From: Escherichia coli
GTDB taxonomy: Bacteria > Pseudomonadota > Gammaproteobacteria > Enterobacterales > Enterobacteriaceae
Strand: one strand, 5' to 3'
Length of the DNA stretch: 64,000 nucleotides
NCBI RefSeq assembly: GCF_044324875.1
Contig: NZ_CP172185.1
The notes under the pieces are model-generated. The model had not been told where the DNA came from. It was given only the letters and a program-made list of their open reading frames with translations, and made no database searches. A program made the position numbers and the translations under genes. Numbering within the stretch: the stretch's first letter is position 1; each line of letters opens with the position of its first letter. Below, one piece after another: positions 4,256 to 39,288 of this stretch.

Positions 4256-4275
4256 CTTGACCTTCCCCTTGCTGG
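4256..4275. repeat. attL core (direct repeat copy 1)
   Basis: 20/20 identity with 39269..39288; lies 70 bp downstream of the int stop. Confidence 0.8.
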
Positions 4276-4344
4276 GGACAAAGAACTGCGTGGTGTAAAA
4301 TAACACCACGCAATATCAATAAGTTACATAACCACTTTAACTCT

Positions 4345-5388
4345 CTACCTCCCTTTTTCCTCAAAATGTGGACACTCAATGGACATATCACATAGCGGAT
4401 TATGCATCACAGCATCGCTTAAATAATCCGGCGAAAAATGCGCATAAGTCATTGTCTGAGATATATCTGCATGACCGAGGATTTTTTGAAGAGAAATAAT
4501 ATTCCCCCCATTCATCATAAAATGGGTGGCAAATGTATGCCTCAATACATGAACCGCTTGACCGTCCGGCAAATTAGGCTTAGCCACCTTCAGTTTCAGC
4601 CTAAACCATTTATAACTCACCCGAAATAAACGCCCCTCCTTGCGATGTTTTACAAGCCTAACAACATCATCAGAAACAGGAACAACCCGACGCTTATTAT
4701 TTTTTGTGAAATTAAATACAACCTTATTACCGATAATATGTTCCCCCATTAGCTGATATGCTTCATTCCAGCGACAGCCTGTAGACAACAAAAGGACAGC
4801 CATTCGGTAATAATCTCCCGAACCCTTGCAGATAGAAAGAAACGCACCAATCTCTTCATGATTAAGATAAGCCATCTCTGGGGTTTTTTCCTTGAGGCGA
4901 GGAAGCGACAATACAGGGTTACTACCGTGATATTCACCAATCTCTGCCATAGCCTTTAACGCAGCGCTAAACGCAAAAAGATCATGGTTGATTGTAGATG
5001 CCTTAACCCCTTGATCGAGACGGCGCGATCTATATTCAGCAACCATGCGTTCATCAATCTCGTACATCATAGGGTCACCCATATCAAGACAAATACACTG
5101 GAGGTTATTCAGTCTACGATTCGCGTAATCCTTGTGACGACCTATCAGTAACCACCACGTCGCAATGAAATCGCTTAAATATCGCTTGTCCAGAAGATTA
5201 CCGAAAACATCAACAGAAGGGCGATCAGCAAGAACTTCGCGTTCAAATGCTACAGCCAGATTTTTTTTCTCAAACTTCCGACGAATGCGCCTTCCCTTAC
5301 TTCCGTCGGGTCGAATGTCCACAAAATAGCGACCATCTTCGAGCTTCTTAATTGACATAAGAAGACCCTCCAACAGTCCATTCTCCAT
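4345..5388 (-). CDS. int: Tyrosine integrase, P2 Int family
   Basis: 347 aa; N-terminus MSIKKLEDGRYFVDIRPDG...RRIRRKFEKK and C-terminal HxLRHTFATHF...GHADISQTMTYAHF catalytic region resemble P2 Int as recalled. Confidence 0.92.
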   Translation of the reverse strand: MENGLLEGLLMSIKKLEDGRYFVDIRPDGSKGRRIRRKFEKKNLAVAFEREVLADRPSVDVFGNLLDKRYLSDFIATWWLLIGRHKDYANRRLNNLQCICLDMGDPMMYEIDERMVAEYRSRRLDQGVKASTINHDLFAFSAALKAMAEIGEYHGSNPVLSLPRLKEKTPEMAYLNHEEIGAFLSICKGSGDYYRMAVLLLSTGCRWNEAYQLMGEHIIGNKVVFNFTKNNKRRVVPVSDDVVRLVKHRKEGRLFRVSYKWFRLKLKVAKPNLPDGQAVHVLRHTFATHFMMNGGNIISLQKILGHADISQTMTYAHFSPDYLSDAVMHNPLCDMSIECPHFEEKGR

Positions 5389-7992: not shown

Positions 7993-8478
7993 TTAGCGGG
8001 AAGCGCCAACCGTAAGGCTGGCAATGATTTTTTCGGAGAGTGAGAGAGATTCGCGATGATTAAGACCAAGAGCAGCACAAGCTTTATTGCGCGCCGGGTT
8101 GTCCATGCATTCAAGCACCGGAGAGTCCTGCTTCTCAATTTCCACCAGTCGCGCCAGCAACACCTCCGTGCTGAGACCGTCGCTTTCAGTAATCAGGACG
8201 TTATAGCGATGAGCCTGTTCTTTTGCAGCCTGAGCGCGTCGCCCAAATTTCCAGGCGATATTGCAGCCACTAAGCACAGCCACGATACCACCCAGCAACC
8301 AACTGAAATTGCTGCCTGCAAACACAGTAGCCCCAGACGTAAGGATGACAGCATTAATCACCGTATCCATACGGCGGTTAAACACCTCCGAAATATGTTC
8401 AATCCAGTAACTGTTCCAGAGACGAAACATGACCTCGTGTCGCCGTTCGGCATGATTTTCAGTTGGTTGTCTGTTCAT
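7993..8478 (-). CDS. Two-transmembrane-helix small membrane protein (161 aa), oriented against the early operon
   Basis: Two adjacent hydrophobic helices (VINAVILTSGATVFAG; FSWLLGGIVAVLSGCNIAW) followed by a charged helical tail; opposite strand to every neighbouring early gene; 243-bp upstream region of its own. Confidence 0.6.
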   Translation of the reverse strand: MNRQPTENHAERRHEVMFRLWNSYWIEHISEVFNRRMDTVINAVILTSGATVFAGSNFSWLLGGIVAVLSGCNIAWKFGRRAQAAKEQAHRYNVLITESDGLSTEVLLARLVEIEKQDSPVLECMDNPARNKACAALGLNHRESLSLSEKIIASLTVGASR

Positions 8479-9276: not shown

Positions 9277-9394
9277 GCAATCACCATGTACACACAAAAA
9301 AACCGCTTGCAACAACAAACCGGAACAGGGTACGCTTCCCCCGCACCTCATAAAGCGGGTGCCGGGTTTCGCAGCCTGCTGACTAGCAAAGCGC

Positions 9395-9417
9395 ACAACC
9401 GCGCCAGCGGTTTTTTT
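9395..9417 (+). terminator. Intrinsic terminator-like hairpin plus T7 within the 320-bp non-coding stretch after the 8722..9276 gene
   Basis: aaccgc-gcca-gcggtt followed by ttttttt. Confidence 0.45.
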
Positions 9418-9596
9418 GTGCGTACTGTATTGCCACGTCTTTTTCGCACACGAATTATGGCGGGGCGTACGGGGCCGACTTCGGTCGGGCCGGGTTCTTT
9501 GCTAGCCGGTACTGCGAACCTCGTACGTCTCGCCACCCACAGTTTCGCAGCTCTGGATGGTGAGTTTTTAAAACTTACTAGCAAAGAGGCCACACC

Positions 9597-13292: not shown

Positions 13293-13667
13293 ATGAATAA
13301 ACAGGATTTTGGACTTGATACCCTTTTGAGTATGCATGGTTACCAGCATCACATGGATAACGGGTACTGGTGGAAAATTGAGGCTTACCGGGTAAGTCCA
13401 AGTCCGTTCAGACCTCACGGGATACGCTACAATCTGACGTTACATGACCGCTACAATTCGCGTGTGTTTGGTATGGACAACGCACATGGAATAAAACCGC
13501 CAAAGAAGGGAAGATTTACAGGAAAGTTAACTGTTTATGATCATGTGCACCGTACCCCGGTGGATAAAGGTTATCCCTATGAGTTTGTATCCGCAGAACA
13601 ATTGTTATCTGATTTCTTTGATAACGTTGATCGGCTCATTAACGAAGTTACAAAGGGGAAAGCATGA
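13293..13667 (+). CDS. Hypothetical small protein (124 aa), first gene of an overlapping two-gene module in the A-to-Q cargo region
   Basis: ORF with own upstream promoter-like region (direct repeats atgatttgtt / atgatttatt); stop overlaps the next start (ATGA). H/Y/W-rich; no motif I can assign with confidence. Confidence 0.6.
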   Translation: MNKQDFGLDTLLSMHGYQHHMDNGYWWKIEAYRVSPSPFRPHGIRYNLTLHDRYNSRVFGMDNAHGIKPPKKGRFTGKLTVYDHVHRTPVDKGYPYEFVSAEQLLSDFFDNVDRLINEVTKGKA

Positions 13668-14050
13668 AAGCCCGCATCGGGATCATCCCGGAAAAAGTCC
13701 TGCGTCAGCGCCTGATTGAAATTGCCAAGGGGGAGCGGAAACCACACCCCGACGAGCCAAGGGTATGGTTTTCATCCATCAATGCGGCGGGTCAGGCGCT
13801 GAGCAATGAAAATATCTCCCTTCTTCGTCTTATGGATGAGGAGAAACCGCAGACCATGACCGAACTTGCGGAGTTATCCGGCAGAAAACTGAGTAACCTG
13901 TCTGTAACCCTGAAAATGCTGAGCAGCTACGGTTTTGTCAGTCTGGAAAAGAAAGGAAATACCGTACACCCGAAGGCACTTTTTACCGATTTTGAAATCA
14001 TCGTTGATCCGTCCGTCGGTTCAGTACATCGCGCCACCGCCCGCCCCTGA
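13664..14050 (+). CDS. Putative winged-helix DNA-binding protein (128 aa), second gene of the two-gene module
   Basis: Central MarR/winged-helix-like segment (MTELAELSGRKLSNLSVTLKMLSSYGFVSLEKKG); translationally coupled to 13293..13667. Confidence 0.6.
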   Translation: MKARIGIIPEKVLRQRLIEIAKGERKPHPDEPRVWFSSINAAGQALSNENISLLRLMDEEKPQTMTELAELSGRKLSNLSVTLKMLSSYGFVSLEKKGNTVHPKALFTDFEIIVDPSVGSVHRATARP

Positions 14051-14063
14051 AGTGTGCAATAAA

Positions 14064-14090
14064 CAGCCCCGGTCGGGGCTGTTTTTTATT
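14064..14090. terminator. Bidirectional intrinsic terminator between the converging 13664..14050 and 14086..14460 genes
   Basis: cagcccc-ggtc-ggggctg hairpin followed by ttttttatt. Confidence 0.6.
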
Positions 14091-14460
14091 CCAGAATCAG
14101 CTGTTCAGGTGTGCAGCCGTACAGTCTGGCAAGGCGCTCAATATTTGCCCTGCGCGGGCGTTCTGTTCTTTCGAATTCGGACACGGTAGCCTGCCTGATA
14201 CCCAGCGCATCCGCCACCTGCTTTTGCGTCATTCCGCGATAGATTCGCCACGCCGCCTGCATGGTGCAGCCACGTTCCGAGAGGATGTTGACCACCTCGT
14301 TGGGATACAGCGTATCAGGCGATGCACTCGGTTCGTTCTGGACGTCCTCGTAGAGTTCGTCAAGGTCGCTGTCTCCTGCCAGTTTTTCAAACAACGCCAC
14401 TGGCAGAATGACGGATACCCTGTTACCCGCACCGTCAGTAATAAACTGAATCTGACTCAT
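14086..14460 (-). CDS. XRE-family helix-turn-helix protein (124 aa), candidate antitoxin
   Basis: C-terminal HTH_XRE-like segment (MTQKQVADALGIRQATVSEFERTERPRRANIERLARLYG); downstream of and co-oriented with a RelE/ParE-like ORF. Confidence 0.6.
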   Translation of the reverse strand: MSQIQFITDGAGNRVSVILPVALFEKLAGDSDLDELYEDVQNEPSASPDTLYPNEVVNILSERGCTMQAAWRIYRGMTQKQVADALGIRQATVSEFERTERPRRANIERLARLYGCTPEQLILE

Positions 14461-14533
14461 TTGCCCCTCCTGCTAAACATCGGTTTATTTTTTAATTTGC
14501 TGCCGGTGATAAAAAACGGCGGGTCGCCCCGCC

Positions 14534-14806
14534 TTAGTATGTTGTCGAGGTTCTCCGCTGAATACGGAGGATCCTGATAACCACTATCTGCCCTCCCTCA
14601 ATCGTGAACCTGACACGGTAATGATTTACCCTGAGTCTGTACTCCCCGCCCGAGTCAGTGAGCTTTTTAATATCCAGATTCTGGAACTTCGGATAGCCAT
14701 AAAGCGCGTTAACTTTCTCGCGTAAGGATTTCTGATCCCTCGCTGGCAAAACCCGTAAATCTTTGATTGCCCGAGGGGTCCACATGATTTCAGTCGTCAT
14801 AAACAC
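14534..14806 (-). CDS. RelE/ParE-superfamily toxin-like protein (about 88-90 aa; start GTG 14806 or ATG 14800)
   Basis: N-terminal ...WTPRAIKDLRVL... and C-terminal YRLRVNHYRVRF...IVVIRI segments resemble RelE/ParE/HigB-type toxins. Confidence 0.6.
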   Translation of the reverse strand: MFMTTEIMWTPRAIKDLRVLPARDQKSLREKVNALYGYPKFQNLDIKKLTDSGGEYRLRVNHYRVRFTIEGGQIVVIRILRIQRRTSTTY

Positions 14807-30410: not shown

Positions 30411-33400
30411 CTAATCTCTGTCACGGAAACTACCGACTGTCTGGCGGATACGGCGTTCCATTTCCGCACGGACGGCATCACCCACCATTTTTGCCAGTTC
30501 GCGCGGGTTTTGCGTGTGAACATCATGCAGGTGAATATGCAGTTCGCCAGTTAATCCCCATGGTGCCGGATCACTCTGACGCGGTCGGGGCGATGCGGGG
30601 GATATGGGCTGGCGTACAGCCTCAACCACCGGACGGGATGTTGCCGTTACGACGGGTGTCATTACCGGCGCAATATTGCCGGACACGACCGGTTTAATTA
30701 CCGGGGAGAGCGTCGGTATAACATCGCCAGCCATAACCGGTTTGATCGCTGGCGAAATAACCGGAGCAACAGACTCAGCCATGACGGAACTGACAGGCTG
30801 AGGCGCTCTCACTATGCCAGCATCGATAACCAGCATGAGCTCGCGTACTGCCTCAAGGACAGGACGGGATATTGCCGCCATCACTGGTGTCATTAGCGGG
30901 GAGAACGTCGGCATGACATCGTGAGTCATAACCGGTTTGATCACCGGCGAAACCACTGGCGTAATATTACCGGACAGTACCGGACGGACGACCGGAGGAA
31001 TAACCGGCACATTATTCACGGACACCACCGGCTTCACGACCGGCGACACGTTCGCCGTGGTGGATATCAGCGGCGAAACACTGACAGGCGGTGGCGCTGG
31101 CAGCGGTGGCAACGAAGGCACACTGACCGACGGCACCTGCGGCAGTCTGACAGGTGGCTCACTGACACTACCCGGTAACAGGGAAGCTGCGCGGTTAAAG
31201 CGTTCCTCCTTCCACTCACCACGAACGGCCAGCGCTTCCGGCAGGTTTTTAAAGATAATATCGCCGGGACCAGTGCGTTTTTTCGCCTGTTTCGCCTCAT
31301 CCAGCAGGCCACCGGTGTTATCGACGATTTTATTCAGGCGACGCATGGTGCCGGTATTCTCCCCCGTCAGCGGAGCAGTTGCTGCAGGTGCAGGTACTGG
31401 CGGCTTTTTGTCTTTGTCATTTTGCGGCGGATTAATGACATTAACATCCGCCAGGAGCATGGCGGCTTTCTCGTTCAGCAGCTCCTTCTGCTTCAGCTCT
31501 TCCGCCTTTTTCCGGGCGCGCTCAACCGCCGACGGAATCAGCCCGAGTTTTTCCAGCACCCGGGTTAACGAGTCAACCAGCAGCGTGACCGGACCGGTCA
31601 CCAGATTGCTGATAAACTCCCCGACCTTCTGCCCGAACGTCCGCCCGGCTTCCGTGCACTTGTCCAGCTCATCCTTTGTTGTGCTTACCGGCGCGAACAG
31701 GTCCACGAACCACTGCCACACACGCCCGATTGTCTGCCCGACGTACTCAAATATCGGTCCCAGCGGTGCCACAGCCTCGCGCAGTGGCGTAAGCCCCTGC
31801 CACAGGCCGGACAGATACCCACCCACGACAGCCTTCAGCTGGTCCCAGTGCCGCCAGATAAGCACTGCCGCACCGACCAGTGCCGCCACCACGAGGCCCA
31901 CCGGACTTAACAGAAAACCCAGCGCCCCGCCAAGTGCGCCCACCGCACCACTCACCATTCCCCACAGCGCAGGCAGACCTGACAGTCTGAGCGCCAGCAT
32001 ACCGATACCGCGCCCCAGAGAAAGCAGAGCACCGCCCGGGGAAGTGAACGCAGCCAGCAGACCACCACGCAGCGTACCGAGTAGTCCGCGCACGCCACGA
32101 AGCCGGACCGCAAGCCGTCCCGCACCGGTATCAAGACCGGCAAACAGCACACGCCAGCCGCCAATACCACTCATCGACCCACCGAGTACGCCGCGCAGCT
32201 GCGTCAGTAACGGCAGCGCACGACCGAGGCCGGATGTGCCGGTCAGCAGGGAAAAGCCAAGACGCAGTTTTGCCAGCGGCCCCAGCAACACGCCGGTAGC
32301 CAGTGACAGCGCCCCCGTGGCCGCAACCGCAGCCAGCAGTGCACCACCGGCAATCAGCAGTTGTTTTGTCAGTTCAGGGTGCGCCTGGGCCAGCGCGGTG
32401 ACTTTCGCAATAACCCGGGTGAACGACTGCGTGACAGAACGCAGCGGCCCGTCAACGAGGTCAGCGACACGGATACGCAGCCCTTCCCATGCGCTGTTCA
32501 GTGATTTCAGGTCGCCGTCCAGGTTGTCCGCCATGATTCTGGCGTTTTCTTCCAGTTCGCCGTTCGCTGCCTGAATCTCACGCGTCAGGCGCGGCAGGTT
32601 TTTTTCGCCTGCCTGTTCAACCAGGCTCATCAGGGAGACATACGCCTCCTGCCCGGCAATATCTGAAAAGAACGAGACTTTTGCCGCGTTACCGTATTTA
32701 CGGGTGGCCTGATACAGCTCATACAGGATATCTTCCATCGGGCGCATGTTCCCGTAAGCATCCTGCGTTTCCACGCCCAGCTGTTTCAGCGCCTTTGCTG
32801 CCGCTTTAGGCGGGTTCACAAGGCGGGACAGACTGGAGCGCAGCGCCGTACCAGCATCACTGCCACGTATCCCCATCGACCCAAGCAACCCGGTCATGGC
32901 TGCGGTCTGTTCAAGAGACAGACCGAGTGAGGCGGCGACCGGTCCCGTATATTTCATCGTCTCACCAAGCCCGCGCAGGTCGGTATTGGTGCGGGTGAAC
33001 GTTGCGGCCAGCGTGTCACCCACGCGGTTCATCTGGTCGGCAGACAACCCGAACTGCGTAAGGATATTTGAGCTGATATCGGCCGTCTGACCGAGGTCCA
33101 TGCCGCTGGCCGTTGCCAGATTCAGCACGCCGGGAAGAGCCGCCTGTATCGCCTGCGGCGTGAACCCCGCCATGGCAAGGAACGCCTGACCGCTGGCAGC
33201 ATCACCTGCGGTAAACTGCGTTTCGGAGCCGAGTTTAAGCGCCTGTTCGCGCAGCGCCTTAAACTGCGGACTGTTTTTGTCAATACGGGTCAGCGCCTGG
33301 ACGCGCGACATCTCCTTACCAAAACTGACCGCCGGTTGCAGGAAACGCCCGGCCGCATAGCCACCTGCCGCTGCCGTGCCGACTGCCGTAAATCCACCCG

Positions 33401-33932
33401 CTTTCAGTTTTCCCGCCATCTCCTGAGCGCGGAAATATTGCTGGCGTGCCTGCGTGACGCGTGCCAGAGTCTGCCGTTCACGTTCCAGCTGTTCGTTGTA
33501 TTGCTGTGTTCGCCGTATGGCCTGTTGAATGGTGTTGTCACTGCCGGAAAGCGCAATACCGTGACGCCGCAGCTCACCACCCAGTTCGCGCATTCGCTGA
33601 ACTTCACGCGCACGGACCTCATTGAGACGCTCAAGTTTGAGGCTCAAATCGTTCATCAGCTTTTTCTGTTTGTCAGACAGCACGGTTCCGGCGCGCTGAA
33701 TTTGCTGAAGTGCGCTTAACTGGCGTTGTGCCCGGGCAATGCCGTTTCCGGCCTTGTTTGCAGCCTCGCGGGCGCGATCAAATGAACGGGCGTGGCGTTC
33801 CAGGTTTTTGATCGCACCCTGCGTTCTCTGTATGGAGTCGCCAAGCTGGCCCATCATGCGACGGGCGTTTTCGGTGGGACGGGTCAGCCTGTCAACAGCG
33901 CTGAAGGCGACCCGTATATCAAGCGTTTTCAT
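30411..33932 (-). CDS. T: Tail tape measure protein (gpT-like), 1173 aa from the ATG overlapping the E' stop, with Pro/Val-rich repetitive C-terminus
   Basis: Very long Ala/Gly/Leu-rich ORF following the E/E' chaperone pair; the ORF track start at 33968 is an over-extension. Confidence 0.85.
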   Translation of the reverse strand: MKTLDIRVAFSAVDRLTRPTENARRMMGQLGDSIQRTQGAIKNLERHARSFDRAREAANKAGNGIARAQRQLSALQQIQRAGTVLSDKQKKLMNDLSLKLERLNEVRAREVQRMRELGGELRRHGIALSGSDNTIQQAIRRTQQYNEQLERERQTLARVTQARQQYFRAQEMAGKLKAGGFTAVGTAAAGGYAAGRFLQPAVSFGKEMSRVQALTRIDKNSPQFKALREQALKLGSETQFTAGDAASGQAFLAMAGFTPQAIQAALPGVLNLATASGMDLGQTADISSNILTQFGLSADQMNRVGDTLAATFTRTNTDLRGLGETMKYTGPVAASLGLSLEQTAAMTGLLGSMGIRGSDAGTALRSSLSRLVNPPKAAAKALKQLGVETQDAYGNMRPMEDILYELYQATRKYGNAAKVSFFSDIAGQEAYVSLMSLVEQAGEKNLPRLTREIQAANGELEENARIMADNLDGDLKSLNSAWEGLRIRVADLVDGPLRSVTQSFTRVIAKVTALAQAHPELTKQLLIAGGALLAAVAATGALSLATGVLLGPLAKLRLGFSLLTGTSGLGRALPLLTQLRGVLGGSMSGIGGWRVLFAGLDTGAGRLAVRLRGVRGLLGTLRGGLLAAFTSPGGALLSLGRGIGMLALRLSGLPALWGMVSGAVGALGGALGFLLSPVGLVVAALVGAAVLIWRHWDQLKAVVGGYLSGLWQGLTPLREAVAPLGPIFEYVGQTIGRVWQWFVDLFAPVSTTKDELDKCTEAGRTFGQKVGEFISNLVTGPVTLLVDSLTRVLEKLGLIPSAVERARKKAEELKQKELLNEKAAMLLADVNVINPPQNDKDKKPPVPAPAATAPLTGENTGTMRRLNKIVDNTGGLLDEAKQAKKRTGPGDIIFKNLPEALAVRGEWKEERFNRAASLLPGSVSEPPVRLPQVPSVSVPSLPPLPAPPPVSVSPLISTTANVSPVVKPVVSVNNVPVIPPVVRPVLSGNITPVVSPVIKPVMTHDVMPTFSPLMTPVMAAISRPVLEAVRELMLVIDAGIVRAPQPVSSVMAESVAPVISPAIKPVMAGDVIPTLSPVIKPVVSGNIAPVMTPVVTATSRPVVEAVRQPISPASPRPRQSDPAPWGLTGELHIHLHDVHTQNPRELAKMVGDAVRAEMERRIRQTVGSFRDRD

Positions 33933-34445
33933 GCTCTGCGTTCCCGCTGCGAAGGGCCGCCCGCTCACGCCAGGCGACCACCTCGCCGGGATCCATCAGG
34001 AAGATTTCAGCGGGAGACCAGTTGAAAATAACGGCGATATCCGCCACAAAGTCTTCAATATGCTCAAAGGGCACGACGGTTATCAGCCTGCCGTCGCCGC
34101 CACGCTCTTCCCGCCAGAGTCCTGACCGGCCAAAAAATTAACCGCCACCCCGCACAGCTGAATAAAATCAGCGGACCCCATGCGCTTAAGCATAACCTCG
34201 TCCAGTCGCGGCGAAGTGACGCGCGGGAGTAACTCAAACATCGCGTCCGTTTTCATGTTCAGCACGTCAAGCAGTGACAGCCCGCGCAGTGAACCGGCCT
34301 GCTGTACAGCAGGCGTGATTTCCACATACGTGATTTTTTTGTTACCGAGCACAAGGGGTGTTTTCAGTGTCACGCCGCGCTCACTGGTCACGTCAGCCAC
34401 ATCAGCACCGTCAGTAACAGGGGCAACAACCGGATTTTCTTTCAT
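33919..34445 (-). CDS. Tail assembly chaperone frameshift product E+E' (programmed -1 frameshift at 34131..34137)
   Basis: Manual translation in the -1 frame after T_TTT_TTG gives an extended product ending at TGA 33919..33921, overlapping the tape measure start. Confidence 0.7.
34083..34445 (-). CDS. E: Tail assembly chaperone, P2 gpE family (zero-frame product)
   Basis: 120-aa ORF upstream of the tape measure gene; carries the slippery heptamer near its 3' end. Confidence 0.8.
   Translation of the reverse strand: MKENPVVAPVTDGADVADVTSERGVTLKTPLVLGNKKITYVEITPAVQQAGSLRGLSLLDVLNMKTDAMFELLPRVTSPRLDEVMLKRMGSADFIQLCGVAVNFLAGQDSGGKSVAATAG
34131..34137 (-). promoter_or_regulatory. Programmed -1 ribosomal frameshift heptamer T TTT TTG (E to E')
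   Basis: Heptamer in frame as (AA)T TTT TTG in the last part of E; conserved mechanism in tail chaperone genes. Confidence 0.7.
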
Positions 34446-37592: not shown

Positions 37593-37844
37593 ATGTTCCG
37601 TTGTCCCCTGTGCGGTGCATCCGCACGTATCCGCACCAGTCGCAATGAAAATGATTCAGGCACAGTTCGCCTGAAGTACTACCAGTGCAATAACCTCGAA
37701 TGCGGGATCGGCTTTACCACACTGGAGGGTTTTAACAAATTCACATCAAAACGCGCCCCGTCGCCGCAGGGTACAGAGCGGATACCGTGGGAAGATTTTC
37801 CGGGATCTCACAGGGGGAATGCTCAGATGAATCTTGATATTTAA
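37593..37844 (+). CDS. ogr: Zinc-finger late gene activator, Ogr/Delta family
   Basis: 83 aa with CPLC...C-x4-C zinc-finger spacing and N-terminus MFRCPLCG resembling P2 Ogr (MFHCPLC...). Confidence 0.88.
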   Translation: MFRCPLCGASARIRTSRNENDSGTVRLKYYQCNNLECGIGFTTLEGFNKFTSKRAPSPQGTERIPWEDFPGSHRGNAQMNLDI

Positions 37845-37962
37845 GAACAATAATCAGGTTGAGAGGACATCATAAGGCAAGTAGATTAACGGCAGATACT
37901 TTCCCGCAACCACGGGCAAGTATTTAATTATCCATGATGAAATATGACCTAAATTGTTTTTT

Positions 37963-37988
37963 GCCCGCCGGAAAGCGGGCATTTTTTT
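37963..37988 (+). terminator. Intrinsic terminator 1 of the ogr-attR array (gcccgc-cggaaa-gcgggc plus T8)
   Basis: Hairpin and T-run read directly. Confidence 0.75.
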
Positions 37989-38202
37989 ATTCTTTTGTGG
38001 TTATGGGGTCATCAGGAACCACGTGCAGATTATATTTTTGTTTTTTTGGCGTTCCTCCGGCAGCAACGAGTTCATCAATAAGACACTGACACGCCTGAAC
38101 ATCCCGGGCATGTCTTAGTTTCACCTTTATTGATTTAACCTTATCCTCACCGGAGGAGAAATGCAGTTCAATCTCAATATCGTTTCTTCGGAACAATCTC
38201 AT
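37987..38202 (-). CDS. Hypothetical small protein (71 aa) between ogr and attR
   Basis: ORF on the minus strand; no recognisable motif. Confidence 0.4.
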   Translation of the reverse strand: MRLFRRNDIEIELHFSSGEDKVKSIKVKLRHARDVQACQCLIDELVAAGGTPKKQKYNLHVVPDDPITTKE

Positions 38203-38429
38203 ACGCCCCCCTGAATATATCAGAAATGCTAGTATCGAAAAATGAGAAAACAGTTAGACAGGAGAAACATATTAACACAAATCATTTATACCTATAGATG
38301 AAATTATAATTTCATTCATGAATATGATAGATAACTATATTGTGAACAAAATGAAAAATGGCTAAATTAAAAATGGGCATGGAGGAATGCCTCGTAATCA
38401 GTAATACATGATCCATACTTCCTTGTTTT

Positions 38430-38455
38430 GCCCGCCGGAAAGCGGGCATTTTTTT
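38430..38455 (+). terminator. Intrinsic terminator 2 of the array (identical hairpin gcccgc-cggaaa-gcgggc plus T8)
   Basis: Identical stem-loop to terminator 1. Confidence 0.75.
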
Positions 38456-38631
38456 GGCGGTTACCATCGCCTCACCTTCCTGGTTCACACAAAGCAACCC
38501 TGATTTTCCATGAAAACTTCAGGGTTGAGCCAAAAGCACAAAGACAGTAGATTAACCAAGGGTACCCGCCACCTGCCAACAGGAACGGTATCCAGTACGT
38601 ATTAATGACTGACAATTCACATTGCTGTTTT

Positions 38632-38657
38632 GCCCGCCAGAAGGTGGGCATTTTTTT
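38632..38657 (+). terminator. Intrinsic terminator 3 of the array
   Basis: gcccgcc-agaa-ggtgggc hairpin plus T7. Confidence 0.7.
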
Positions 38658-38834
38658 GGCAGTTATCATGGACGCACCTTCATGACACATATTAAGCAGA
38701 CCTGATTTTTCCATGAAAAATTCATGGTTGAGACAAAAGCACAAAAACAGTAGATTAACCACGGGTGCCTGCCACCTGACAACAGGAAGGGGTGTCCATT
38801 ATCCATGATATACAAACGAAAAGTCTTGTCTTTT

Positions 38835-38861
38835 GCCCGCCGTTGCGCGGGCTTTTTTTTT
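38835..38861 (+). terminator. Intrinsic terminator 4 of the array
   Basis: gcccgc-cgttgc-gcgggc hairpin plus T9. Confidence 0.7.
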
Positions 38862-38890
38862 GCCACCCTCACCAGTGAGGGTACCATCAT

Positions 38891-39178
38891 TCAGAGGCGC
38901 GTAAGCCACCCGGCGTTAACATCCTGCCCGTCAACCCTGACCGCAGAGTCTGAACGGCAGGCACCGGAAGCAGTACCAAAAACACCTCTGACAAGTTCCG
39001 CCACCTTCCCGATATCATCAGGCGCCACATTCCTCACCTCGACAGTGATCCGTGGCGTACCATCATCGTTAACAAGCGTGGCTTTAAGGCTGGTACGACG
39101 GGCAAATAACATCAACACCCCCTCCCTTCGGTTCGTTGCACTGGCAGCACGATACCACCAGGAAAAAGAAAAGCCCAC
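38891..39178 (-). CDS. Hypothetical protein (up to 95 aa) adjacent to attR
   Basis: ORF on minus strand; several possible starts; no motif recognised. Confidence 0.35.
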   Translation of the reverse strand: MGFSFSWWYRAASATNRREGVLMLFARRTSLKATLVNDDGTPRITVEVRNVAPDDIGKVAELVRGVFGTASGACRSDSAVRVDGQDVNAGWLTRL

Positions 39179-39203
39179 AACGTCAGGATTGCGGGCTTTT
39201 TTT
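39172..39203 (+). terminator. Intrinsic terminator 5, last phage element before the copA promoter
   Basis: gcccacaa...ttgcgggc hairpin followed by ttttttt. Confidence 0.6.
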
Positions 39204-39268
39204 CTTCAAAAATGGACACTACGTGGACACTGATTAAATAATCCTTTCTTAATCAGACTGTTAAAATG

Positions 39269-39288
39269 CTTGACCTTCCCCTTGCTGG
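39269..39288. repeat. attR core (direct repeat copy 2)
   Basis: Identical to 4256..4275. Confidence 0.8.

What the first reader, a model, noticed from the sequence alone, without database searches (positions are those of the whole stretch)
37845..39205. Array of five same-strand intrinsic terminators and repeated ~200-bp units between ogr and attR
Four terminators share an almost identical gcccgc...gcgggc hairpin plus T-run. Two full units (38456..38657 and 38658..38861) and a shorter copy after ogr share a conserved core. Sequence differences between units are not biased to third codon positions, arguing for RNA or DNA-level function rather than peptides. Looks like a tandem family of small RNA genes or decoy/regulatory elements; two small minus-strand ORFs are interleaved.
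Basis: seen in the sequence. Interest (0 to 1): 0.6.

Follow-up and report, generated by a model that had tools for sequence, protein, structure and literature searches.

The report
Toxin-less hok-derived small RNA gene array
The right end of a rare P2-like E. coli prophage carries four related small non-coding RNA genes, which appear to descend from the messenger gene of a hok/sok toxin-antitoxin cassette that has lost its toxin; they are undescribed, and no expression or function has been shown.

Summary
Between ogr (37593-37844) and attR (core 39269-39288) lie four near-identical plus-strand terminators, a fifth different bidirectional one, two ~203-bp tandem units and a shorter copy after ogr.

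Each of the four terminators closes its own small gene. A sigma-70-like promoter (TTGnGA-17 nt-TA[G/A]ATTAA) sits about 95 nt upstream. The predicted RNAs have a 5' stem-loop, a ~35-nt unpaired AU-rich tail and a terminator with 7-9 U. They are A 37893-37988, D 38374-38455, B 38559-38657 and C 38762-38860.

No reading frame is conserved. No Rfam family matches. The family occurs in only 30 of 5,426 complete E. coli genomes.

In 71 of 80 related prophages this slot holds hok/sok. The units share the hok promoter layout, the hok mRNA 5' end (CGGGTGCCTT) and one hok allele's terminator, but have no Hok reading frame. They are best read as toxin-less hok-mRNA derivatives multiplied and shuffled by recombination.

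Function is inferred, not shown. Most likely they are base-pairing regulatory RNAs made in the lysogen. One lead: RNA A pairs (15 contiguous bp) with a prophage gene for a two-transmembrane protein. Inert relics remain a serious rival.

The parts
37593..37844 (+). ogr (late activator). This is context. No terminator lies between its stop codon and RNA gene A, so T1 is also the first terminator for the D-ogr transcript.
   Evidence: ORF list; annotation of the identical record; sequence.
37859..37887 (+). Promoter-like site of RNA gene A: TTGAGA, 17 nt, TAGATT. It occupies the position of the hok promoter (TTGCCG, 17 nt, TAGATT) in related prophages.
   Evidence: Consensus scan, 9 of 12 matches; comparison with 80 ogr loci.
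37893..37988 (+). Predicted RNA A, about 96 nt: a 5' stem-loop, an unpaired tail UUAAUUAUCCAUGAUGAAAUAUGACCUAAAUUGUUUUUU, and terminator T1 (37962-37988, 7 U).
   Evidence: Fold -27.8 kcal/mol, z = -3.7; covariance-model hit E = 4.7e-15, noting that A was in the training alignment; unit-profile hit E = 4.5e-15, where A was not in the profile. Identical in 9 loci.
37987..38202 (-). 71-codon gene (WP_001236182.1), a small cargo protein of unknown function. It converges on RNA gene A.
   Evidence: phrog_14142, E = 4.9e-12. Relatives of 57, 128 and 133 aa sit at a prophage end and in P4-like satellites. The gene is truncated or frameshifted in 2 of 3 copies in locus L002.
38299..38316 (.). Perfect 18-bp palindrome ATGAAATTATAATTTCAT, between the 71-codon gene and RNA gene D. 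It may be an operator.
   Evidence: Sequence. It is unique in the window, and the flanking TCATTTATACCTATAGATGAAATT is invariant in four module copies. No function was tested.
38340..38455 (+). RNA gene D: promoter TTGTGA, 17 nt, TAAATT (38340-38368), predicted RNA about 38374-38455, terminator T2 (38429-38455).
   Evidence: Pattern extraction; fold; covariance-model hit E = 2.3e-5 although D was not in the model. The tail is a hypervariable patch: 14 of 34 differences there against 2 of 409 elsewhere, compared with L002.
38456..38657 (+). Unit B: conserved upstream half, promoter TTGAGC, 17 nt, TAGATT (38525-38553), predicted RNA 38559-38657, terminator T3 (38631-38657).
   Evidence: E = 2.1e-15.
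38658..38861 (+). Unit C: promoter TTGAGA, 17 nt, TAGATT (38728-38756), predicted RNA 38762-38861, terminator T4 (38835-38861, 9 U).
   Evidence: E = 1.4e-19. It is the best hit in the whole window to a profile of 42 hok promoter-plus-leader sequences (E = 0.027). T4 against the terminator of the second, decayed hok copy in locus L002 ('hok2'): 23 of 27 matches, z = 8.4.
38891..39112 (-). 73-codon ORF (WP_029400554.1), probably not a functional gene.
   Evidence: It has 16 nt differences from the L002 copy, spread 6/4/6 over codon positions, giving 10 amino-acid changes. No Pfam, PHROG, NCBIfam or PADLOC match and no phage hit.
39164..39205 (.). Fifth terminator. Its sequence is different and it is terminator-like on both strands. 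It lies between the cargo region and the integrase arm sites and copA.
   Evidence: Terminator scan: 13 pairs on the minus strand, hairpin plus T-run on the plus strand.
39213..39288 (.). Right attachment site. It holds direct TGGACA arm repeats (39213-39232) and the 20-bp core cttgaccttccccttgctgg (39269-39288), which is repeated at attL (4257-4276). The core is the -35 element and left half of the CueR operator of the copA promoter.
   Evidence: Sequences. The copA promoter assignment rests on my own knowledge of the promoter.
8414..8445 (-). Candidate target of RNA A. The site lies in the 5' part (codons 12-22) of a 161-codon two-transmembrane protein gene (7993-8478, minus strand; phrog_6315).
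   Evidence: 15 contiguous pairs, AGGUCAUGUUUCGUC with GAUGAAAUAUGACCU. Duplex energy -29.3 kcal/mol and net gain about -21.8 kcal/mol. 1 of 51 shuffled RNAs reaches this energy over the prophage. The same site is the top hit in a 67%-identical allele of a second prophage lineage that carries A. Complementarity is weak in two homologues: one comes from a complete genome that lacks the units, and the unit status of the other is unknown. This is a lead, not a result.

Best explanation
What it is. The ogr-to-attR end of this P2-like prophage is a cargo slot. In this rare lineage it is filled with four paralogous small non-coding RNA genes, A, D, B and C.

Anatomy. Each gene has its own sigma-70-type promoter. 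Each predicted RNA is roughly 82-100 nt, with a 5' stem-loop, a ~35-nt unpaired AU-rich tail that differs sharply between copies, and an intrinsic terminator with a long U tail.

Origin. [quoted passage not shown] They keep the hok promoter layout, the first ~30-40 nt of the hok mRNA and a hok-type terminator. They have lost mok/hok and the Sok region. The copies have since been multiplied and shuffled by recombination between the repeated promoters and terminators.

How it most likely works (inferred). The RNAs are made constitutively in the lysogen. RNA A can also form as the 3' end of the D-ogr transcript. They act as base-pairing regulators, using the variable tail as the recognition element and the terminator plus U-rich flank as an Hfq-type binding module. 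The one concrete candidate is RNA A pairing with the early coding region of a prophage two-transmembrane protein mRNA and lowering its expression.

Shown versus inferred. Shown in silico: the sequence anatomy, the absence of coding signal, the family relationship among the four genes, the narrow distribution and the link to hok. Inferred: transcription, Hfq dependence, targets and any phenotype.
For: Anatomy. Four near-identical terminators. Promoter-like sites sit at a fixed ~95-nt distance in every copy, 16 distinct sequences across the loci. Predicted folds show hairpin, unpaired tail and terminator.

One family. A covariance model built from A, B, C and relatives also finds D, at E = 2e-5. 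A unit profile without A finds A at E = 4.5e-15.

Structure is kept. 96.9% of cells pair, 7 pairs change on both sides, and 0 of 500 shuffles reach this; slid controls pair 28-51%.

Non-coding. Frame-breaking indels and no third-position bias.

Intactness. All 8 RNA units in locus L002 keep the promoter motif. In the same locus one of two hok copies has lost its -10 element and start codon, and two of three 71-codon gene copies are broken.

Mosaic pattern. Tails are hypervariable between otherwise almost identical flanks: 14 of 34 differences against 2 of 409.

hok link. 71 of 80 ogr-relative loci encode Hok within 450 nt of ogr. A hok-leader profile finds its best hit in the whole window at unit C, in register with the -10 element and the 5' end (E = 0.027). 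Local alignments reach the observed score in 0-1 of 500 shuffles. The unit profile hits the 3' end of the second, decayed hok copy in L002 ('hok2') at E = 0.006. Units and hok/sok are interleaved in L002 and L004.

Candidate target..
Against: There are no expression data of any kind.

The family is confined to 30 of 5,426 complete E. coli genomes and a few metagenome contigs. Evolutionary depth is therefore small, and intact copies may simply be young.

The same region is visibly decaying: a hok pseudogene, broken 71-codon gene copies, and an internal attR-like remnant in L002.

The hok homology is short and only marginally significant on its own (E = 0.027). The unpaired tails show no significant similarity to hok 3' tails.

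The covariation count comes from an alignment fitted to the model. Part of it could also have been inherited from functional hok ancestors.

Target prediction is weak for B, C and D. For A the shuffle test gives only about p = 0.02-0.04. The site is not the main translation start. The candidate target gene matches at megablast level in only 9 of the 30 genomes.
Confidence: 0.5

Rival explanations
1. Inert relics. The units are decayed hok/sok cassettes, with promoter and terminator left after deletion of the toxin. Unequal crossing-over at a prophage end copied them. They may be transcribed but do nothing.
For: The region is a junkyard in relatives: a hok pseudogene, broken 71-codon gene copies, an internal attR remnant, and cassettes gained or lost at the repeated terminators. 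The distribution is narrow and the copies are very similar. The 73-codon ORF evolves neutrally. No convincing targets emerged for B, C or D. Inactivated chromosomal hok loci are well known in E. coli (my own knowledge).
Against: All 8 units in L002 keep the -35 and -10 motifs at 17-nt spacing and the terminator stem, while neighbouring protein and hok cargo is broken. The hairpin is kept through two-sided changes between classes. Divergence is concentrated in the tail rather than spread evenly. The RNA A-target match recurs in a 67%-identical allele.
Confidence: 0.3
2. Mainly a terminator stack. The repeated hairpins insulate the host copA gene and the cargo genes from late D-ogr transcription. 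The promoters would be incidental leftovers.
For: Five plus-strand terminators lie in 1.3 kb, all pointing at copA. T1 is the first terminator after ogr. The last one is bidirectional and sits just inside attR.
Against: One or two terminators would be enough. Insulation does not explain a conserved promoter, a conserved 5' hairpin and a variable tail in front of each terminator. Relatives carrying hok manage with fewer terminators.
Confidence: 0.07
3. Decoys for hok/sok. The RNAs keep the hok mRNA 5' end and a hairpin resembling the Sok-target loop. They could therefore bind Sok antitoxin RNA or otherwise interfere with hok/sok systems of co-resident prophages or plasmids.
For: The unit hairpin CCTTCC-ACC-TGACAA-CAGGAAGG matches the leader hairpin of the second, decayed hok copy in L002 ('hok2') at 21 of 25 positions (0 of 500 shuffles). 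Units sit next to hok/sok in L002 and L004. Some strains carry both prophage types.
Against: The Rfam sok/hok-leader model does not match the units. The unpaired tails show no significant complementarity to hok loci on either strand. The hairpin similarity can equally be explained by co-linear homology with the first 40 nt of the leader. The window prophage has no hok at all.
Confidence: 0.06
4. Hidden type I toxin-antitoxin pairs. Small peptides would be read on the minus strand from the conserved Shine-Dalgarno-like AGGAAGGTG plus ATG to the right of T2 and T3. The plus-strand RNAs would be their antisense antitoxins, as in the Ibs/Sib or Ldr/Rdl repeats.
For: The ribosome-binding-like motif and ATG are conserved on the minus strand after each unit. 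Tandem repeats are typical of Ibs/Sib and Ldr/Rdl loci (my own knowledge). Hypervariable regions are a known feature of antisense pairs that overlap in cis.
Against: By my own translation of the sequences, the predicted peptides differ completely between copies, from 14 to 65 residues, with frames shifted by single-base indels. There is no conserved hydrophobic peptide. No minus-strand promoter is conserved.
Confidence: 0.04
5. DNA-level elements: binding sites for integrase, IHF or Cox, or recombination scaffolds at the attachment site, rather than genes.
For: The units lie within 1.4 kb of attR. The repeated terminators clearly serve as recombination points between cassettes.
Against: The arm-type TGGACA repeats lie outside the units, at 39213-39232, and at 4368-4385 for attL. 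The palindromes in the units occur nowhere else in the prophage. The paired columns co-vary in the way expected for RNA, including G-U pairs.
Confidence: 0.03

Closest known systems
[quoted passage not shown]
   Same: It occupies the same slot right after ogr in sister prophages. The promoter layout is the same (TTGnnn, 17 nt, TAGATTA). The RNA 5' end is the same (CGGGTGCCTT, four bases after the -10 element). There is a 5' hairpin built on that element, and the terminator is of the same family as that of one hok allele.
   Different: There is no Hok or mok reading frame and no match to the RF01794 model. No Sok gene was found. The RNA is about 100 nt rather than about 400. There are several tandem copies with unrelated tails.
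Tandem type I toxin-antitoxin repeats of E. coli K-12: Ibs/Sib ('QUAD') and Ldr/Rdl ('LDR') (my own knowledge)
   Same: Short tandem units, each with its own small RNA gene, promoter and terminator. Copy number varies between strains.
   Different: Those units encode a conserved small hydrophobic toxin opposite or beside the RNA. Here no peptide is conserved in any frame.
Prophage-encoded Hfq-dependent small RNAs, such as DicF of Qin, AgvB and AsxR of Stx phages, and IsrK (my own knowledge; IsrK is also present in this window)
   Same: Stand-alone RNA genes in prophage accessory regions. The layout is a 5' structure, an unpaired seed and a U-rich intrinsic terminator. They are presumed to be expressed in the lysogen.
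   Different: There is no sequence or Rfam relationship. Four paralogues lie in tandem. They derive from a toxin mRNA gene. Hfq binding and targets are untested.
Accessory-gene hotspots ('morons') of P2-like phages and P4-like satellites (my own knowledge)
   Same: This is a variable cargo slot at a fixed position between conserved genes. In relatives the cargo is hok/sok, HicAB, a TM2-domain protein or the 71-codon gene. Homologues of the 71-codon gene lie in a P4-like satellite and at another prophage end.
   Different: The cargo here is mostly non-coding RNA genes rather than protein defence or toxin systems.

Membership tests
[quoted passage not shown] | Hok toxin reading frame (about 50 aa, one transmembrane helix, conserved Cys) | tested here: not met
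   tblastn with two Hok proteins against the window: best E = 0.028, at an unrelated place, and nothing in 37845-39288. The ORF list shows no such frame.
[quoted passage not shown] | hok leader with the Sok target and mok start, as modelled by Rfam RF01794 | tested here: not met
   There is no RF01794 hit in the region at E <= 1, nor in the window at gathering score. The same model finds both hok loci of L002, at E = 7e-9 and 2e-8.
[quoted passage not shown] | hok mRNA promoter and 5' end (the 'tac' element, GGGTGCC) | tested here: met
   A profile of 42 hok promoter-plus-leader sequences has its best hit in the window at unit C, in register (E = 0.027). Local alignment reaches the score in 0-1 of 500 shuffles. 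The position after ogr is the same. Support is moderate, because the match is short.
[quoted passage not shown] | 3' fold-back element (fbi) and 3' terminal hairpin | tested here: inconclusive
   The terminator of unit C matches that of the second, decayed hok copy in L002 ('hok2'; z = 8.4; unit profile E = 0.006). The sequence before the terminator is not significantly similar to hok 3' tails (z <= 2).
Hfq-dependent base-pairing small RNA (a functional class) | Own promoter, and an intrinsic terminator with a long U tail preceded by a U-rich stretch | tested here: met
   Consensus matches and folds only: 7-9 U after each stem, and UGUUUU or UCUUUU before it.
Hfq-dependent base-pairing small RNA (a functional class) | Expression, chaperone binding and a validated target | not testable with these tools
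   No transcriptome or binding data are available. There is only one predicted target, for RNA A.
Described RNA families (Rfam 15, including C4, IsrK and sok) | Covariance-model match | tested here: not met
   Only sub-threshold terminator look-alikes (Thr and Trp leaders, Hrs1) at E = 0.05-0.3. There are no hits in L002 other than sok.
Ibs/Sib- or Ldr/Rdl-like tandem type I loci | A conserved small hydrophobic peptide gene paired with each RNA | tested here: not met
   Single-base indels shift the frames between copies. Substitutions are not synonymous-biased in any frame. By my own translation, peptide lengths run from 14 to 65 residues.

The most novel reading that the evidence does not exclude
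A type I toxin mRNA gene has been turned into a family of trans-acting, antitoxin-like small RNAs. RNA A would silence a conserved two-transmembrane protein of the same prophage (7993-8478, about 5.5 kb away on the circular phage map). The pair would then be a split toxin-antitoxin or abortive-infection switch. The hypervariable tails of the paralogues D, B and C would give other specificities.
Probability: 0.12. Interest if true: 0.7.

Novelty: new variant of a known kind. Interest (0 to 1): 0.4.

Why it matters
If the RNAs are made and active, this would be a clear case of a toxin-antitoxin messenger gene being recycled into regulatory RNA genes. The 'seed' regions are swapped by recombination at a prophage end. 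That suggests a route by which phages invent new small RNAs.

It would also add RNA genes to the known cargo of P2-type hotspots, which are currently surveyed almost only for proteins.

If the units are relics, they still document how hok/sok cassettes decay and multiply. They also explain why annotation pipelines leave 1.4 kb here nearly empty.

Tried and rejected
Known RNA families. Rfam searches of the region, of L002 and of the whole window found nothing for the units.

Wider distribution. There was no match in INPHARED phages or in PLSDB plasmids. A pattern scan of GTDB species representatives gave one match in an unrelated Chloroflexi genome, presumably chance. The IMG/VR and metagenome scans gave only the same lineage plus apparently unrelated single matches.

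Literature. Two keyword searches and an exact-sequence search found nothing on these units. A recent Hok survey reports enrichment of hok in prophages, and its main text contains none of the search terms tandem, pseudogene or remnant.

Peptide coding on either strand. Rejected.

Anti-hok or anti-Sok pairing of the tails. No signal above shuffles.

Origin of the upstream half of the units from the 3' end of ogr. Not significant.

Homology of the tails with hok 3' tails. Not significant.

Operator sharing. The palindromes in the units occur nowhere else in the window.

The two minus-strand ORFs. No Pfam, NCBIfam or PADLOC family and no phage tblastn hit. Homologues of the 71-codon gene elsewhere have no units next to them.

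The candidate target protein. AlphaFold gave a helical hairpin with mean pLDDT 66. Foldseek against the PDB gave nothing below E = 0.6. Pfam and PADLOC were uninformative.

CRISPR-repeat mimicry, REP elements, type III ToxI repeats and retron RNA. Considered from the sequence and my own knowledge only, and dropped. The spacing, the stem sequence and the absence of partner genes do not fit.
Full report
Setting. The window is E. coli chromosome carrying a P2-like prophage. The prophage is inserted between glsA and copA (annotation of the identical record). A 20-bp core, cttgaccttccccttgctgg, is present at 4257-4276 and at 39269-39288. From my own knowledge of the copA promoter, this core is the -35 element and the left half of the CueR operator. 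The promoter is therefore rebuilt intact at attR. Direct TGGACA repeats next to both cores (39213-39232 and 4368-4385) look like integrase arm sites. The finding covers the 1.4 kb between the ogr stop codon (37844) and attR.

The observation. It is confirmed. Four plus-strand hairpins TTTTGCCCGCC...GCGGGC(A)T7-9 lie at 37959-37988, 38426-38455, 38628-38657 and 38831-38860, and are 83-100% identical. A fifth terminator at 39169-39205 has a different sequence and also looks like a terminator on the minus strand. Tandem Repeats Finder reports a 203-bp period with about two copies. The short copy after ogr matches a profile of the units from promoter to terminator at E = 4.5e-15. The nine substitutions in the gap-free core fall 5/3/1 and 5/1/3 in the two open frames. 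Single-base indels between copies shift every long frame.

Anatomy. Every one of the four terminators has a sigma-70-like promoter about 95 nt upstream, always with 17-nt spacing. The promoters are TTGAGA...TAGATT (A, C), TTGAGC...TAGATT (B) and TTGTGA...TAAATT (D). The predicted transcripts are A 37893-37988, D 38374-38455, B 38559-38657 and C 38762-38861. Each folds into a 5' stem-loop, about 35 unpaired AU-rich bases and the terminator with 7-9 U. That is the usual build of a base-pairing small RNA.

One family. A covariance model made from A, B, C and relatives also finds D-type genes, which were not in the model (E = 2e-5 to 9e-4). On the resulting alignment 96.9% of cells pair and seven pairs change on both sides. 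No shuffle out of 500 reaches this, and slid controls pair only 28-51%. Two caveats apply. The alignment is fitted to the model, and the sequences are few and related.

Distribution. The family is rare. It occurs in 30 of 5,426 complete E. coli genomes, many of them from poultry. It is absent from deposited phage genomes and plasmids. It was not found in the representative genomes of other species (one presumably chance match). It appears on a few IMG/VR and metagenome contigs of the same lineage. Rfam has no model for it, and I found no paper that mentions it.

Relatives and context. Carriers are one group of P2-like prophages that integrate at copA, ihfA or serS. Their ogr-attR slot holds different cargo: the 71-codon gene, HicAB, or hok/sok. 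Locus L002 (the serS type) has nine copies of the terminator and eight RNA units. It also has one intact and one decayed hok/sok locus and an internal attR-like remnant. Segments of the units have different nearest relatives. For example, two units can be identical in the 65-nt upstream part yet differ at 15 of 38 tail positions. The D gene of the window differs from its L002 counterpart at 14 of 34 tail positions but at only 2 of 409 positions elsewhere. The array is therefore a mosaic produced by recombination between repeated promoters and terminators. The window's T4 junction looks like a hok cassette deleted between two such terminators.

Origin. I fetched 80 loci encoding relatives of this Ogr. 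In 71 of them a Hok reading frame lies within 450 nt of ogr. The hok mRNA promoter follows the ogr stop codon directly: TTGCCG, 17 nt, TAGATT, then ACGCG-CGGGTGCCTT. The units read TTGAGn, 17 nt, TAGATT, then AACCA-CGGGTGCCTT. The layout, the spacing and the ten-base 5' element are the same. In hok mRNA this element is the 'tac' sequence that pairs with the 3' end (my own knowledge of the R1 system).

A profile of 42 hok promoter-plus-leader sequences finds its best hit in the entire 64-kb window at unit C, in register (E = 0.027). Local alignments reach the observed score in 0-1 of 500 shuffles. The unit profile in turn hits the 3' end of the second, decayed hok copy in L002 ('hok2'; E = 0.006). 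The window contains no Hok frame and no match to the Rfam hok-leader model.

I conclude, with moderate confidence, that the units are hok mRNA genes that lost the mok/hok/Sok core. The exact deletion end-points cannot be fixed. The unpaired tails have no detectable source.

The interleaved ORFs. The 71-codon gene (37987-38202, minus strand) belongs to a real small-protein family. It matches phrog_14142, and relatives of 57-133 aa sit at another prophage end and in P4-like satellites. Its function is unknown. It is broken in two of three L002 copies. The 73-codon ORF (38891-39112) shows no purifying selection, with 16 differences spread 6/4/6 by codon position and 10 amino-acid changes, and it matches nothing.

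Function. This part is inference. In favour of active RNAs:
- All eight units in L002 keep the promoter motif, while neighbouring protein and hok cargo decays.
- The 5' hairpin is kept through compensating changes.
- Divergence is concentrated in the tail.

Against:
- The family is young and narrow.
- The region is a recombination junkyard.
- There are no expression data.

Target search. Searches within the prophage gave nothing convincing for B, C or D, and no pairing with hok or Sok sequences. RNA A gave one outlier. It forms 15 contiguous pairs, plus two short flanking helices, with the minus-strand mRNA of a 161-codon two-transmembrane protein gene (7993-8478; phrog_6315). The site is 8414-8445. 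The duplex energy is -29.3 kcal/mol, and the net gain in a co-fold is about -21.8 kcal/mol. One of 51 dinucleotide shuffles reaches this over the whole prophage.

In the serS-type prophage the gene is only 67% identical in DNA. Yet the same site is again the top hit (-26.7 kcal/mol), and it is the best-conserved 27-nt window of the gene (24 of 27). Two closer protein homologues have poor complementarity (-15.9 and -18.8 kcal/mol). One of them is from a complete genome that lacks the units.

There are counter-points. The site lies at codons 12-22, not at the main start. The synonymous-site test is underpowered. With 14 scans, one or two outliers of this size are not very surprising. I treat this as a lead worth one reporter experiment, no more.

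Verdict. The units are most likely a lineage-specific family of small RNA genes born from a hok mRNA gene. Whether they still do anything is open. I put about 0.5 on active base-pairing regulators and 0.3 on inert relics. The remainder is spread over insulation, Sok decoys, hidden peptide toxins and DNA-level roles.

Noticed in passing
window 9343-9540 (+): IsrK (9343-9417, 64.7 bits) and C4 antisense RNA (9453-9540, 82.8 bits) lie side by side in the prophage early region, just upstream of a gene annotated 'derepression protein'. This looks like a P1/P7-type c4-ant immunity module inside a P2-like prophage.
   Followed up: partly
window 4257-4276 and 39269-39288: The prophage is integrated inside the copA promoter. 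The 20-bp core is the -35 element plus the left half of the CueR operator. attR rebuilds the promoter, now with phage DNA upstream of -35. attL keeps a half-site facing the integrase gene. Any effect on copper regulation is untested.
   Followed up: partly
L002 3415-3490: In the serS-type relative, an attR-like remnant (arm repeats TGTGGTCACTGCGTGGACA) sits in the middle of the cargo region. This suggests the 3.7-kb right end was assembled from two prophage ends by recombination.
   Followed up: no
window 38456-38500 and 38658-38700 (minus strand): A Shine-Dalgarno-like AGGAAGGTG followed 5-7 nt later by ATG is conserved on the minus strand just to the right of T2 and T3. The frames it opens are not conserved. 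Unexplained.
   Followed up: partly
window 38299-38316: A perfect 18-bp palindrome, ATGAAATTATAATTTCAT, lies between the 71-codon gene and RNA gene D, next to a 24-nt block that is invariant in four module copies. It could be an operator.
   Followed up: partly
L116 26176-26216 (minus strand; replication endonuclease gene): The lineage-specific tail of the D-type RNA of L002 pairs strongly (-33.5 kcal/mol, z = -6.8) with the gpA mRNA of its own prophage, but not with the window prophage. This could be chance.
   Followed up: partly
window 30411-33968 (-): RefSeq marks the tail tape-measure gene as 'incomplete' in several carrier genomes. In the window an uninterrupted 1,185-codon ORF spans the position, so this is probably an annotation artefact.
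   Followed up: partly
window ~13300-14800 (positions from the annotation of NZ_CP100500.1, which may be offset by about 130 bp here): A second cargo block lies between the replication gene and the portal gene. It holds a DUF6516/HVO_A0114 pair and a RelE toxin with a helix-turn-helix partner.
   Followed up: no
L112 3400-3700: The P4-like satellite that carries a homologue of the 71-codon gene has an AT-rich 300-bp stretch with many copies of TGTAATAA/TTATTACA upstream of that gene. These look like iterons or repeated binding sites.
   Followed up: no
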